From Lingula anatina (Eukaryota; Animalia; Brachiopoda), in assembly GCA_051362555.1 (NCBI GenBank), contig CM120640.1:17794001-17858000 (forward strand): a DNA stretch of 64,000 bases, in the 5' to 3' direction. The notes beneath the pieces are model-generated. The model worked only from the letters and a program-made list of their open reading frames with translations, did not search any database and was not told the origin of the DNA. A program made the translations under genes and the position numbers. Shown here piece after piece: positions 53,001-58,300 of the stretch (position 1 is the stretch's first letter; every line of letters starts with the position of its first letter).

Positions 53001-56000
53001 TTCAATCTGCCTACAAAAAAAGAGAGCCATTGTTGACTTTTTAACCCTTTCCAAGGGCAAAAGAATTCAGAGTAATGAGTGCATCAATGTGCCTGCCTCA
53101 TTCCATAGGCTTATGCACTGAACTTTTTCCAGCAGGCTTGACCAGCATGAAAAATTACTCTCTTTTAACACACCATTTCACCAAGTAAATAATGCAAACT
53201 AATATTCTATATAATTTAGCACACCAGTTCATACCTGCAGACTGAAGCCTGCAATTAATTTTTGGCAACATCTTGTCTTGATCAGGCTAGTTATAGCAAG
53301 TTATCTAGACATACCCTGAATGTTCATCACGTAAGTGATTTTTTTTTTCCAGTATATATTTTTCTTTTACTATTTACGACCTGCACCTGTAAGCCTATTA
53401 CAGACATGAATGAATGAATAAAGATATGAATGAATGGGAATCTTTCCCTAATAGAGAAAACTGTTTTAACTAATTTTGTATTCTTCTATCTCCCACTTAA
53501 TAATCTAACAGAAAAAGGGTGTGTTAATTGCTTCTTTGTATGCTGAAGACACATATGGTCCATCTTTCAGGGTTAAGTAACTGGATTACTCTTCCTCAAA
53601 AATCAATGGGTTTTGCCTACACTTGCACCTGTATATAGAAATATGTGGGATACTATTTTCATCCTCTCCAGTTTTCTTAGGCCAAGGACCCTTAACTGGT
53701 TATTACTGGTTCAGCCTGGCTATTTGGTCTAATCAAGGAGTTATAACAGAAGGAGATTACACGCGTGGGGGCGGAGCCCGTATTACGGTCTCTCATTGGT
53801 CGGAATGAATAGAACCCAGAGAACAATGGATGCCTATCTCTGTTACGCTTAATTGCTACTCTCGTTTAAATCTCGTTTGTTAGTATCTGTGCCTTCGTCT
53901 GTTGATTTTTGAGGACAGAAACAGAAACGGAGTCCCAAGTTTCTAAAAAATGAGAGAAATACAGAATTTATATGATATTACGTTGGACAAGGTTTTCAAA
54001 AAACAGGTAAGTGCTTTTAAATGCATAACTACACGAAATATGAAGATAAATTGCAACTTTTATGTCGTAGGGTCTCACTGTGTAAGTGTCCAGCTACACG
54101 TTGATCTCGCGAGGTGGTGTGTGGAGAATAAATATTGCACGAAAAATATTTCCCACTCATAACAAGTGCCTATAAATATAGTATCAGATGAAGAAAGTTT
54201 GGTCTTTATACAGTTGCAATTGTTAAGTAATTTGTGGCAACAGCAAAGAATAAAACTTAGGTGCACTTTCAGTAGCCGAATAACAAGCAGATGCTTAAGC
54301 CGCCATCTTGTTAATATTTCGAAAAAAAATTACTCCAAAAGACATTTTCGTCCTACTTTTTGAAACTTGTGTCACATGACAGTCATAAAATTTATCTTAT
54401 TGTTTTGTGTGCAACACACTTGCTTGAGCAGTATTGTTTTTTTTTGCGATTTTACATGTGGTCTAGCTTGGATACGACAATTGACAATTTTCATGAGTTC
54501 CGATCAAAAAGTGTTACGCTTGTTACGGCCAAAAGCCTTACCGCTTTTTGTACTTTTCAAATGCAAGATTATAAAAAAAATTGGTGTGTTTAGATTCTTG
54601 AACATCTTGGTCGTGGCGTGGTATATATTGCATGGATACTGCTCCAATATTTCTTGAAAAAAATAACCTGATTTGTTCAGAATACCAATTTTTTACTCTA
54701 GTGTTATGGGTAAATGTACCATTTTGGCCTTTACCTTTTTCATGTTTAAATCTAAAAAGACTTATCATGACAGTTGGTCATCATTTTTCTTCTCACCATG
54801 GTGGGTGGCTTTGGAGTGGTAACTTTGTTGTTAAAGTAAAGTGCTCAGTTTTTTTGACTGGAAAATTTTGCCTCCACCCAGCATTTCCCATCATGGCGGT
54901 CTAACAGGAAGTTTGACTTCACAGTGTCTTTGGTATAGTTATTTTTAACTTATTTAGTCTTCTTTTTACATATATATGTTTTAATTCATATTAAACCTTT
55001 GAAAAAAGAACACACGTGAATCCTGGTGCTTCTTAATTTAAAGTCTTAAGGTTTTAAGTTCACCTAGGCTCCACCAATTACTTTACCTGTTATCTCACTA
55101 CACATCTCTCTTTGAGTCAAGGTGTGTAAGACACACCTTATTGTGTAAGACACCTCTATAATTAAGAGGTACTTGCTTCTCTACTTAAATTATACTTCAC
55201 TACTTTGGCATGTTAGGTGGCAAGCTTGGATGTTTCAGTTCATTTTAAGAAAGAAGCTTTGCCTTGGTGGTTACAAAAGAATAGAACTCTATTAAGGTTT
55301 ATTCATTACTTGAAATTAAATATTTCATCTTGTAGTGTTGAAACAGAAATTCTCTCAAAATTGATAATGAATTTGACATGCATATCTTAACACTACTCAA
55401 GTTTTTTTTTTCTATTATAGATATGGGAGAAGGCTGCATTGAAAATATGAATTATGGTCAGGCTGGAAAAAAATTAAAATATGTCAATGAAAAAAGGAGG
55501 TCAGTGTGTCTGAAGTAAGTTACTTTTGTCATAATGCCTAAGATGCATTAAACATTCACTAACAACAGTACCCTTTTTAATTTTTTTTTTTCAAAATACA
55601 ACAACCTTGGGCATTTTCCTTTTAGCAACCAGCCTCTCTGAAATCCCCTTTTTGTCCTGTCAGAAGAGTAGGAACCAGGGCGGATTTAAATAATTTCTTG
55701 TAATAAATACAATTTCTTTCAATTTCTTGGGGTTATTAGCTTGTGATCATGAATCTTGATGTTCTATATAAATTTAGTTGTAAATTGTTCATTTATGTGG
55801 TGAACATTATTTCAGTCAAGTCATAACAAGACACATTAAACTTCACTGCGTAATTCCATAATGACTACATGGATACTAGTAGTTCATAATGCTATTATTA
55901 TGTTTTTTTTTCTAACCTACAGGTTTCTCTCTTTTCTGAGTGGCATGGCATTAGCAAGGCAGAAGAAAAGGCCCTGAAGAAATTCTCACTTGAGTTGTCC

Positions 56001-58300
56001 TTTTTGGAGAAGAAACTGGATAAGACTGGCCAACAGAGATTGCATTAAATTAATAGTGCTCCTTTATGACATTTTAAAATATTTTCAGTCACCTAACTGA
56101 CTCTATACATTGCAAAAGTGGACATAAATTTTATGTTACTGTTACATGGAAAAAAATTCAAAACCTATACATAAATTGTTGAGTGCCATGGTATAACTGT
56201 CTACCTGATTGCCAGTGAAATTTCTGTTTCAGTGAAATTTCTTTAAAGTAGTCACTTACTGCTTACTTACCAGTTAATTTTTTCAGCTGTTACATTTTAT
56301 AAATGTTCTTACTAAGTGTTGTCTTGATCTATAATAACCTTTTGAAAATCCCATGTTTTTTATCCTATTTGTAAGAATTAACCACTTTATCTTCTAGGAT
56401 TTTTTTTTTTTCATTCGGCCCATTAGATTCTCAGACCTTGCTGGCCTGTAAGTGGAATAGTATCTGGCACAGACTGGTATCAGCAAGTCAGATAAAAAAG
56501 AATATAATTATTTATATTTGCACGATTGAAAAAAATGCCATCATAGACTGCATAAAACTGGAAAACTGTAGCAACTTAATCATTCTTATGACTTCATTTA
56601 TTACTGCTTATGTGTAAAATTTTTGTTTTTGTTCTTCTATTGATATAATAAAATGGTTTTACTCACAGATGCTACTTTCATGAGTATAGAGTATAGAGTG
56701 CTTGAGTATAGAGTTGACTTAAAAGATATTTTAAGTTAATATAGTAAATAATAGTTTGAAATTCAATATTCTCATCTTTATTTGTTTCACTTTAAAGAGC
56801 TCAGTGAATACTAAAATTTCTGATATATTTTGTACATAAATATATTTATGAATTAATAAAAATTATTCTTAATGTATAGCACTGTGCACTTGTTTACCGA
56901 CAAATATGAACAGTGTTAGTACGTGTCAAATAATCCTGAAAAAAAGGGAAATTTCCAAGATAAAGAAATTTATAACGAGTATTCAGTAAACTGACGTGTC
57001 GTGGCATTGCCTCAACCTTGGATTAAAATTTTAATTAAATGCATTATAATATTAAAATTATACCGAGTGAGAGAAAAAATACTTTAAGAAATTTAAAACC
57101 AGACACAAAGCGCAGGCACTGTCACAATGTATATGTTTATGGGACCCAAGGGCAGGAGGGTCCAAACGTTAATGTATTAATATTATGTCCTTTGGCAGTG
57201 AGGACAGACGTTCACTTGAATGTCATTTTCACAAACCACAGTTGGGACGTTTTCTTTTGACTTCTCCTTGGTGATTTTTCACCGGGTTGTGCCATAAAAA
57301 AGCCATCTATCACCGACTAAAAAAAGCTCATGGCGACCATCCTCAGTCACCACCTTATAATCGCTTTCTATGATATCGTTCCCTTCCAGCACATCGTCCA
57401 AATAATTACCTGTGAAAAAAATCGTCAGCATACAGCGGCGCTTTGACATTACTGATCTCGAATTCTAACGCGAAATAACGCATATGAAATTTATCTCCAA
57501 GCTGAGGAGAGCGACGCAGACGAAACCTTGAGACCGGAGGCCCCCCGTAGCTAGCTCCGCCCACCGTAACAGACATCGGACAATAGAAAGGCTTGCGTGT
57601 AATCTCCTTCTGTTATAACTCCTTGGTCTAATCCTGGGACACCTCTTTATATTTATGAACTTTTTTATTTTTATTAAAACAGATTTATAATTGTTCATTC
57701 ATGTTTCAGGATCTTTCTGTCTGCAATGTTTTAATACCTCATTTGCTGATAATCAGCAGGTGCAGCTAAGAGATGCATTCACTGCTGTTATCGTATTTTT
57801 CACATATATTTTTCTTCAATTACAAGATGTTGAATTATTGGCCTATCATCTTAAAGGTTATTTGCACCTTTTTTGTGCTAATATTTTTAAATAGAAAATA
57901 AAGTGATTTTTTGTCTGCAGCAGTTTTTAAGAATGACAAATAAATGTTGTAATTTTTAATATGACTCGACGTCAATAAAATGGGTAAATTACCTGTAAAA
58001 ATGTAACGTAGCTGAGGCGAATGCTAGTAATACCTGTAGCTCTGTCTATAGACGGTAATGAAATGCTTTCTCGAGTCACAGCATGCAAAGTAGCCGGTCT
58101 ATGAAAACCCGCATACAAAAACATTATTTAACCAAAGCCATAGAGTTGGAAGCACTGATGCGTCATCAGGTCAAACATCTTCTATCTATATCTTTAGGGA
58201 GAGGCTGCGTTTTTCTAGCAGCGCTGTCTTGATCCTAACTTACTTTAGACCCTATCTGGTTCCCGCACTGGCCAGCTTGGAGGTGGACGATTTCGCGCAT
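50043..58300 (-). CDS. TUBB: Beta-tubulin paralog A, 4 exons, 447 aa
   Basis: Exons 58244-58300 ([19 protein letters not shown]), 52661-52769, 51477-51587 and 50043-51109, total 1344 nt. GGGTGSG motif; tail [21 protein letters not shown]. Candidate polyA signals on the minus strand at 49731-49736 and 49380-49385. Confidence 0.97.
53734..57625. mobile_element. Non-autonomous P-superfamily-like DNA transposon (3892 bp) in beta-tubulin A intron 1
   Basis: Perfect 31-bp TIRs CAAGGAGTTATAACAGAAGGAGATTACACGC (53734-53764 and reverse complement at 57595-57625). 7-bp TSD GTCTAAT at 53727-53733 and 57626-57632. CA start, 31-bp length and ATAACAnAAGG core resemble the Drosophila P TIR. No transposase ORF. 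Confidence 0.88.
53950..56048 (+). other. Putative spliced cargo gene or pseudogene inside the P-like element, antisense to beta-tubulin A
   Basis: GC box at 53769-53777 and ATTGG upstream. Exon 53950-54006 ends in CAG|GTAAGT. Strong acceptors precede 55421 and 55923, with a donor GTAAGT at 55515. Joining exon 1 to exon 3 gives an open 60-aa ORF. Including exon 2 gives a stop after 28 aa. Confidence 0.5.

What the first reader, a model, noticed from the sequence alone, without database searches (positions are those of the whole stretch)
53727..57632. Intact P-like cargo transposon with mirrored promoter-like ends inside a beta-tubulin intron
Seen: perfect 31-bp TIRs and a perfect 7-bp TSD (GTCTAAT) bracket 3.9 kb with no transposase or THAP ORF but several strong splice signals. 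Both ends carry the same inward-facing motif pair GGGCGGAGC...CGGTCTC (53769-53791 and reverse complement at ~57530-57562). Known: P-superfamily elements, including Galileo, have TIRs starting CA and 7-8 bp TSDs, and the Drosophila P TIR is 31 bp with an ATAACATAAGG core. Inference: this is a recently inserted non-autonomous P derivative carrying intron-containing cargo, like a Pack-type element. I do not know of this being described for P elements in lophotrochozoans. The mirrored motifs could be Sp1-type promoters or transposase binding sites.
Basis: partly seen in the sequence, partly recalled or inferred. Interest (0 to 1): 0.8.

Follow-up and report, generated by a model that had tools for sequence, protein, structure and literature searches.

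The report
Gene-less P transposon making spliced RNA
A 3.9-kb jumping element with no recognisable protein gene sits in a tubulin intron of what is likely a lamp shell (brachiopod); two other animals lack it at this spot, its family makes a spliced RNA and likely has hundreds of copies, and it is likely a hitch-hiking relative of the fruit-fly P element, not a carrier of captured host genes.

Summary
The element is real. Perfect 31-bp TIRs and a 7-bp TSD bound 3,892 bp in intron 1 of an intact beta-tubulin gene. Two DNA runs hold the empty site, one differing by exactly element plus one TSD. Contig depth is about 300-470 times the flank along the whole interior, so this is likely one homogeneous family of some hundreds of copies, not variable cargo. 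P-superfamily origin is supported without the transposase. The termini match the medaka P element Izanagi at 13 of 15 nt and share a subterminal motif with it. Target sites look Galileo-like. TIR-only scars keep 12-20 nt of each end, like P excision junctions. Stranded RNA-seq shows a spliced + strand RNA from the left end (window-copy ORFs at most 48 aa), mostly from other copies. Right-end RNA runs mainly outward; inward RNA is weak. No transposase, THAP or host donor gene was found, so Pack-type cargo is unsupported; the interior is most likely a decayed transposase transcription unit (inferred). The shared end motifs are significant and more likely transposase sites than Sp1 boxes. Verdict: a new, young non-autonomous P family; modest interest.

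The parts
53727..53733 (+). Left target-site duplication GTCTAAT (7 bp)
   Evidence: one copy only in the empty-site contig of X9 (skip 3,899 = 3,892 + 7)
53734..53764 (+). Left TIR, 31 bp, begins CAAGG
   Evidence: 13 of the first 15 nt match the medaka Izanagi terminus
53765..53850 (+). Left subterminal, CpG-rich region with shared words (53769, 53783, 53786, 53839); likely transposase sites plus the promoter of the + strand RNA
   Evidence: shuffle test; CpG o/e 0.98 over 53734-54600; + strand RNA depth rises from about 1 to 9-45 in bin 53764-53957 in three stranded runs
53800..54006 (+). Exon 1 of the family's spliced RNA (5' end approximate); donor at 54006
   Evidence: joint to 55421 in 149, 17, 56 and 0 reads of X14, X17, X18, X20
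55421..55514 (+). Exon 2 (minor donor at 55499)
   Evidence: joints; junction contexts
55626..55702 (+). Alternative exon 2b (3' edge approximate; expressed copies differ from the window here)
   Evidence: 55514 to 55626 in 62, 0, 6 reads; 55699 or 55702 to 55923 in 20 + 20 reads of X14
55923..56670 (+). Last exon, with AATAAA at 56647 (likely poly(A) signal)
   Evidence: 55514 to 55923 in 40, 8, 27 reads; depth falls after 56673; AATAAA position
57100..57471 (-). Region kept at about 85% identity in older relatives; weak inward RNA; a related copy forms the last 50 residues of a Lingula gene model; splice donor at 57410
   Evidence: table 8; joint 57410 to 53942 in 4 reads, 2 starts
57450..57594 (.). 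Right subterminal, CpG-rich region with shared words (57573, 57569, 57562, 57536); holds the Izanagi-like motif at 57554-57567; source of outward-running RNA at other copies
   Evidence: + strand depth 13-29 versus 1.9-5.3 on the other strand in bin 57450-57643, with loose ends into foreign flanks
57595..57625 (-). Right TIR, 31 bp
57626..57632 (+). Right target-site duplication GTCTAAT
50043..58300 (-). Host beta-tubulin gene (exons 58300-58244, 52769-52661, 51587-51477, 51109-50043); the element lies 612 bp from the exon-1 donor
   Evidence: intron 1 spliced in 7, 342, 388, 685 reads

Best explanation
This is a 3,892-bp TIR element with a 7-bp target duplication and a precise empty allele in another animal; it is likely a young copy of a non-autonomous P-superfamily family moved by a transposase made elsewhere, and its family's spliced RNA is likely the decayed remnant of the parent's own transposase gene. 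Mechanism. A THAP-type P transposase made in trans would bind the shared subterminal words (bp 36-114 from the left end, 53-96 from the right), pair the 31-bp TIRs and cut with a long stagger, perhaps about 20 nt rather than the fly's 17. It would leave TIR-only scars at donor sites and insert at RTNNNAY-like 7-bp targets. Shown: ends, TSD, empty site, many copies, scars, a + strand RNA of 3-4 exons from the left end, outward RNA from the right end at some copies, and no long ORF in the window copy. Inferred: the transposase's identity, the binding role of the motifs, the cut length and the origin of the exons.
For: Empty site: X9 contig of 2,398 bp, depth 87.4, skips 3,899 bp; X11 is empty too. 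Depth over the element in X9 is 285-761 times the flank in 21 of 21 bins, and 72-600 times (median about 300) at 27 of the 30 listed sites, three adjacent sites dropped. Runs with 1 Mb of contigs hold 75% of its sampled words. Ends: the Izanagi terminal 15-mer (PMC2820524) matches, with 2 mismatches, only at the two termini in 64 kb (0.34 expected anywhere). A motif at about bp 51-63 of an Izanagi end recurs at bp 59-72 of the right end (by eye, 0 of 100 shuffles, pattern chosen after seeing both). 11 of 17 nt match the Drosophila P terminus in register (by eye). The termini fit the P consensus YARNG quoted in PMC2820524. 7-bp TSDs are made by Galileo and 1360 (PMC3698922), consensus GTAGTAC (PMC2775673); six target 7-mers here have T at position 2 in 6 of 6 and A at position 6 in 5 of 6 (window plus loose ends; three are mixed consensus). 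Scars: 20 + 20 nt with one substitution, or 17 + filler + 20 (X20, 12 reads, 6 starts; X11 contig); 12 + 11-nt filler + 20 (X11); 16 + 15 with unknown middle (X9). Fly junctions are 17 + filler + 17 (PMC2895639). Izanagi carries a degenerate three-exon THAP that starts at the end resembling our left end (orientation read by eye).
Against: No transposase or THAP similarity was detected anywhere in the interior, so the remnant origin is not shown. The autonomous partner was not seen: no host genome is held. Izanagi has an 8-bp TSD, so the Repbase rule (same TSD length plus 10 of 11 terminal matches; PMC4455052) is only half met. Summed contig depth is not a copy number by the tool's own statement. 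Scars come from 3 joints, and the X9 one has an unknown middle. Older relatives align at 57100-57570 and then diverge, so the wider family has other interiors. Most RNA reads differ from this copy (55444 T in 89-94%; a 1-bp deletion at 55467 in 61-77%), so expression of this copy is not shown.
Confidence: 0.65

Rival explanations
1. Pack-type element: a P derivative captured an intron-containing piece of a host gene or lncRNA once, then amplified with that fixed cargo (as for Ssk-FB4 in Drosophila).
For: The interior has real exons and introns and is CpG-depleted in the middle (o/e 0.14 over 54601-56850), as a methylated gene body would be (inference). No transposase remnant is detectable. P elements capture sequence after artificial mobilisation, and multicopy Pack-TIRs exist in animals (PMC8277862).
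Against: No donor found. The exon-3 frame has no credible match among 1.84 billion representatives (2 hits, both explained or likely explained by summed weak repeat matches) or by word search. The one protein hit for the right-end region is a gene model that took sequence from the element. The promoter lies in the element's own subterminal region. Known animal Pack-TIR cargo is mostly single-copy, median 224 bp.
Confidence: 0.15
2. BuT5-like case: P ends joined to an interior unrelated to the master element (recruited sequence, or a decayed second gene of the parent), whose spliced RNA arose or is kept as a non-coding transcript of the family.
For: BuT5 shares only its ends with its P master (PMC3698922). 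The interior here matches nothing known. A minus-strand stretch at 57100-57471 is conserved in older relatives and reads as one frame in a related copy, which hints at a second, convergent unit.
Against: End similarity to Izanagi places the transposase promoter at the left end, where the main RNA starts (by eye). At 3.9 kb the element is the size of a full P element (2.9 kb, PMC7776569; 3.4 kb, PMC3698922). Inward right-end RNA is weak.
Confidence: 0.15
3. The element is moved by a non-P transposase (for example a hAT or MULE family with 7-bp TSDs).
For: 7-bp TSD hAT families exist in Repbase (PMC4455052). No transposase was seen here.
Against: Izanagi-like and Drosophila-P-like termini, scars that keep 12-20 nt of each TIR, and Galileo-like targets.
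Confidence: 0.05

Closest known systems
Izanagi, non-autonomous P element of medaka (PMC2820524; passages and supplement S2 read; supplement S3 is a picture and could not be read)
   Same: No intact transposase; 13 of 15 terminal nt identical; shared GGAG..ACACGC at the inner TIR edge and a subterminal ACGGTGG(G)CGGAGC motif; inward-oriented words shared by both ends; exon-bearing interior; supplies regulatory sequence to host loci.
   Different: Izanagi: 1,316 bp, 27-bp TIR, 8-bp TSD, 13-28 copies, recognisable degenerate THAP. Here: 3,892 bp, 31-bp TIR, 7-bp TSD, likely hundreds of copies, no detectable THAP.
Drosophila melanogaster P element (PMC7776569 and PMC2895639; passages read)
   Same: 31-bp perfect TIR; 11 of the first 17 nt in register; asymmetrically spaced subterminal sites; TIR-stub scars with filler; insertion near a promoter.
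   Different: 8-bp TSD and 17-nt stagger there; here 7-bp TSD and scars that keep up to 20 nt. Defective fly copies are heterogeneous deletions; here one long form appears to dominate.
Galileo and 1360/Hoppel (PMC2775673, PMC3698922, PMC3688188, PMC10567549; passages read)
   Same: 7-bp TSD with T at position 2 and A at position 6; a binding site within about 80 bp of the end; 1360 starts transcripts that run into neighbouring host sequence.
   Different: Galileo has long, internally repetitive TIRs; both are intronless, whereas this element's RNA is spliced.
BuT5 MITE of the Drosophila repleta group (PMC3698922; passages read)
   Same: Homogeneous, non-coding, multicopy P-dependent family with an interior of unknown origin.
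   Different: BuT5 is about 1 kb with 3-bp TIRs and 8-9-bp TSDs; the passages read describe no spliced RNA.
Animal Pack-TIRs, including Ssk-FB4 (PMC8277862; passages read)
   Same: TIR element around intron-bearing, transcribed sequence.
   Different: Pack-TIRs are defined by an identified TIR-free parental copy; none was found here. 87% are hAT or Tc1/mariner, and nearly all are single-copy.

Membership tests
P superfamily (non-autonomous member) | Termini fitting 5'-YARNG and aligning with a known P family | tested here: met
   CAAGG start; 10 of 11 and 13 of 15 nt match Izanagi; 11 of 17 match Drosophila P (by eye)
P superfamily (non-autonomous member) | 7- or 8-bp TSD | tested here: met
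   7 bp, confirmed by the empty allele; Galileo and 1360 make 7 bp
P superfamily (non-autonomous member) | Long staggered cut that leaves TIR stubs at donor sites | tested here: inconclusive
   3 TIR-only joints keep 12-20 nt per end, like the fly's junctions; few cases, and aborted gap repair gives similar products
P superfamily (non-autonomous member) | Partner element with THAP plus P-type RNase H/GTP-binding transposase and the same TIRs | not testable with these tools
   no host genome held; contigs are seen only where they overlap the stretch
P superfamily (non-autonomous member) | Subterminal transposase-binding sites at both ends | tested here: inconclusive
   four shared words beyond chance, one shared with Izanagi; binding untested; a recalled THAP pattern gave no inward-oriented match
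Internal-deletion or decay derivative of an autonomous P | Interior homologous to the transposase gene | tested here: inconclusive
   no Pfam hit; short, decayed exons could fall below detection; parent unavailable
Pack-TIR / Pack-type element | Interior traced to a TIR-free parental host locus | tested here: inconclusive
   no donor in protein searches or in the window; host genome not searchable
Pack-TIR / Pack-type element | Cargo differs among copies, or copy number is low | tested here: not met
   similar, very high depth in 21 of 21 interior bins of X9
MITE | Short (tens to a few hundred bp), non-coding, high copy, homogeneous | tested here: not met
   3,892 bp; high copy and homogeneity are met, size is not (definition in PMC3698922)

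The most novel reading that the evidence does not exclude
A P lineage whose end architecture is conserved from a brachiopod to medaka cuts about 20 nt inside its TIRs instead of 17. One 3.9-kb gene-less form has swept to hundreds of copies in one lineage of the host while keeping a spliced non-coding RNA and a two-way promoter. The RNA would be a maintained, functional cargo unrelated to the transposase gene (for example a regulator of its own family), and the right end would hand outward promoters and exons to host genes genome-wide.
Probability: 0.15. Interest if true: 0.65.

Novelty: new member of a known kind. Interest (0 to 1): 0.38.

Why it matters
It is evidence of a recently active, polymorphic P-type family in a lophotrochozoan (likely Lingula). 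Ten paper searches did not turn up a description of it (most relevant), but Repbase and Dfam were not searchable, and I recall unverified Repbase P families from oyster and Capitella. An active parent would be a candidate transgenesis tool for spiralians. It would also allow a direct test of whether the 17-nt staggered cut, known from the fly enzyme, is general. Outward RNA and an exonised copy suggest that the family supplies promoters and exons to host genes, as Izanagi and 1360 do. The expansion is missing in one run under the same species label, so insertions could mark cryptic lineages. The Pack-type reading that earned the first score is not supported.

Tried and rejected
Host genome: none held. 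TIR 20-mer in metagenome contigs: 1 hit, a chance match inside a phage-like ORF. No RNA holder was listed among indexed runs; this is no evidence either way, so raw-read runs were laid instead. Runs X10 (organism B) and X13 (organism C) show only scraps at depth 1-23; read as likely contamination, not horizontal transfer. Pfam on 73 frames and 6 read-through frames, and Rfam: nothing above cut-off. Word searches: exon-3 frame, longer proteins, 0 of 35 candidates; right-end frame, longer proteins, 1 of 18; tail of that hit, shorter proteins, no candidates. Full HMMER search with the exon-3 frame: 2 hits; P0004 is a tandem-repeat protein with about 30% identity per unit, P0005 has no passing stretch and was not aligned; rejected. 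No protein-atlas result was obtained for any frame. Captured tubulin exon: exon 1 of the element opens with the same four residues and has the same 57-nt coding length as tubulin exon 1, but only 12 of the next 45 nt match; rejected as chance. A faint THAP-like look of the exon-2 frames is by eye against recalled sequences and is not counted. First guess at tubulin exon 3/4 borders was wrong and was corrected. The Yuan and Wessler 2011 paper is not held; the term CANRG (recalled) found no paper. PMC7943196 and PMC7168160 were read in passages and added nothing specific; PMC10983969 passages gave the zebrafish Pdre2 ends, which are unlike these. Earlier-finding look-ups by sequence, by genome and two by words returned nothing.
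Full report
Observation. The element is exactly as described. Perfect 31-bp TIRs at 53734-53764 and 57595-57625 and a 7-bp duplication GTCTAAT bound 3,892 bp. It lies in intron 1 of a minus-strand beta-tubulin whose four exons give an intact 447-aa protein, 612 bp from the exon-1 donor. The longest stop-to-stop frame inside is 100 aa. 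Pfam finds nothing above cut-off in 73 of 73 frames or in six read-through frames, and Rfam finds nothing. Of 2,000 shuffles, 0 reach their summed length and 3 their number. Their order and spacing differ between the ends.

Host. No genome is held. One protein search returned an NCBI Lingula anatina gene model (XP_023931215.1, SRCR and EGF domains) whose last 50 residues match 57471-57321 on the minus strand at 79-85% identity in two frames. This is an exonised or mispredicted related copy. The host is therefore likely Lingula, a brachiopod; this is inferred, not shown.

Mobility and copy number. Nine of 13 holding runs contain at least half of the sampled words, including runs with only 1 Mb of contigs. 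Four DNA runs were laid. In X9 one 2,398-bp contig at depth 87.4 bridges the site and skips 3,899 bp, the element plus one TSD; its flanks differ from the window by 5 substitutions and 1 gap in about 1.7 kb. X11 is also empty here. The insertion is thus recent and polymorphic. Summed depth over the element in X9 is 285-761 times the flank in 21 of 21 bins; at 27 of 30 listed sites (three adjacent ones dropped) the median is about 300 times. The tool states that such depth is no copy number, so I take only the order of magnitude: likely some hundreds of copies, with the whole interior shared. X11 carries the same species label but its flank is about 5% diverged; it shows 4-18 times flank depth and 211 of 309 contigs below 95% identity. 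The young expansion appears absent from that lineage. Older relatives (about 85% identity) align at 57100-57570 and then diverge.

Is it a P element? The transposase was not available, so the ends were tested. (1) The paper on medaka Izanagi (PMC2820524; passages and supplement S2 read) gives a P terminal consensus YARNG and a 27-bp TIR. Its first 15 nt match the window, with two mismatches, only at the two termini of this element (0.34 matches expected anywhere). A motif at about bp 51-63 of one Izanagi end recurs at bp 59-72 of our right end (0 of 100 shuffles; pattern chosen after seeing both). This lead came from an earlier AI note and was tested here. (2) Eleven of 17 terminal nt match the Drosophila P end printed in PMC2895639 (by eye). 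(3) Galileo and 1360 make 7-bp TSDs (PMC3698922), consensus GTAGTAC for Galileo (PMC2775673). Six target 7-mers here (window, and loose ends, three of them mixed consensus) have T at position 2 in 6 of 6 and A at position 6 in 5 of 6. (4) The fly enzyme cuts 17 nt inside the TIR (PMC7776569), and repair leaves 17 + filler + 17. Three TIR-only joints were seen: 20 + 20 nt with one substitution, equally readable as 17 + filler + 20 (X20, 12 reads from 6 starts; X11); 12 + filler + 20, with filler partly copied from the TIR (X11); and 16 + 15 with an unknown middle (X9). Two different joints stop at nt 20 on the right, which hints at a longer stagger; three cases cannot prove it. An unreviewed note on a skate genome reports 18-20 nt; it is not independent evidence. 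I put P membership at about 0.9. Against a formal assignment: Izanagi's TSD is 8 bp, so the Repbase rule (PMC4455052) is half met.

Transcription. Four of nine RNA runs were laid. Tubulin fixes the strand convention in X14, X17 and X18; X20 is unstranded. A + strand RNA starts near 53800-53890 and splices 54006 to 55421 (149, 17, 56, 0 reads), then 55514 to 55923 (40, 8, 27) or via an exon at 55626 (62, 0, 6), and fades after 56673, just past AATAAA at 56647. The window copy's spliced forms have ATG ORFs of at most 48 aa. Most reads carry variants absent from the window copy (89-94% at 55444; 61-77% with a 1-bp deletion at 55467, against 26% of DNA depth in X9). The RNA therefore comes mostly from other copies, and the consensus ORF was not built. 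At the right end, + strand RNA is 13-29 deep against 1.9-5.3 on the other strand, and it runs out through the TIR into foreign flanks; in X18 it rises from 0.15 to 29 and enters one flank (31 reads). Inward RNA at 57062-57449 is 4-10 deep, exceeds the other strand in X17 and X18 but not X14, and has one splice (57410 to 53942; 4 reads, 2 starts). Both ends are CpG-rich (o/e 0.98 and 1.07) and the middle is depleted (0.14). So the left inward promoter is supported; the right end looks like a two-way promoter with the outward direction stronger. Tubulin intron 1 is spliced normally (7, 342, 388, 685 reads), and none of the 15 joints shown (4 more were not shown) links tubulin exon 1 to the element; whether those animals carry this insertion is unknown.

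What is the interior? No transposase, THAP or host donor was found. Uniform depth rules out cargo that varies from copy to copy within the young family. A single capture before the expansion remains possible (0.15). Izanagi keeps a degenerate three-exon THAP that starts at the end resembling our left end, and spliced transposase genes are known in P elements (seven exons in PMC3698922). The simplest reading is therefore that the + strand RNA is the decayed transposase transcription unit (overall 0.65; inferred). An unrelated interior, as in BuT5, is the other rival (0.15). The shared end words lie where P (bp 41-63) and Galileo (bp 63-80) have THAP sites (PMC3688188), and the Izanagi version lacks a full GGGCGG box. 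They are more likely transposase sites than Sp1 boxes, and may serve both roles; binding is untested.

Comparison and verdict. It works like Izanagi or BuT5: a gene-less P dependent moved in trans, able to lend promoters to host sequence as 1360 does (PMC10567549). It fails the tested Pack-type feature (variable or low-copy cargo; PMC8277862), and no parental locus is known. Papers were seen as passages unless stated; the Izanagi THAP alignment (supplement S3) could not be read and may bear on the remnant question. My searches found no description of this family, but repeat databases were not searchable. New member of a known kind; interest 0.38. What is worth following is recent P activity in a brachiopod, the end motifs shared with a fish element, and the possible 20-nt cut.

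Noticed in passing
window 60314-62439: A second minus-strand beta-tubulin gene lies just upstream (95% nucleotide identity in the last exon; start at 62439): a tandem tubulin pair.
   Followed up: partly
window 9522-10898: ORF of 458 aa with an IRS-type PTB domain (FRS2-like).
   Followed up: partly
window 25355-25595, 28467-28664, 61509-61701: Short foldback or MITE-like inverted repeats (arms of 102, 66 and 83 nt); no TSD seen at the arm edges.
   Followed up: partly
window 6696-9049: Array of imperfect repeats with a period of about 160 bp, partly duplicated as 760-bp blocks.
   Followed up: no
window 53950-54006: Exon 1 of the element's RNA has an ATG frame that opens MREI and spans 57 nt to a GTAAGT donor, like tubulin exon 1; only 12 of the next 45 nt match, so likely chance. 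A diverged relative keeps a similar start.
   Followed up: yes
run X11, laid on window 52800-58400: Same species label but about 5% flank divergence, and only few, older copies of the element: the expansion looks lineage-specific, or the label covers more than one species.
   Followed up: partly
P0002 (XP_023931215.1), residues 292-341: A Lingula SRCR/EGF gene model ends in sequence from a related copy of this element, entering near a minus-strand acceptor at about 57468: exonisation or a gene-prediction error.
   Followed up: partly
run X20, joint 53750 to 57606: A TIR-only scar of this family lies inside a polyadenylated host transcript (12 reads, with foreign flanks on both sides).
   Followed up: partly
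window 55419 (run X17 loose end): Nine reads join a foreign upstream sequence to the exon-2 acceptor, suggesting that a host exon or an exon missing from this copy splices into the element.
   Followed up: no
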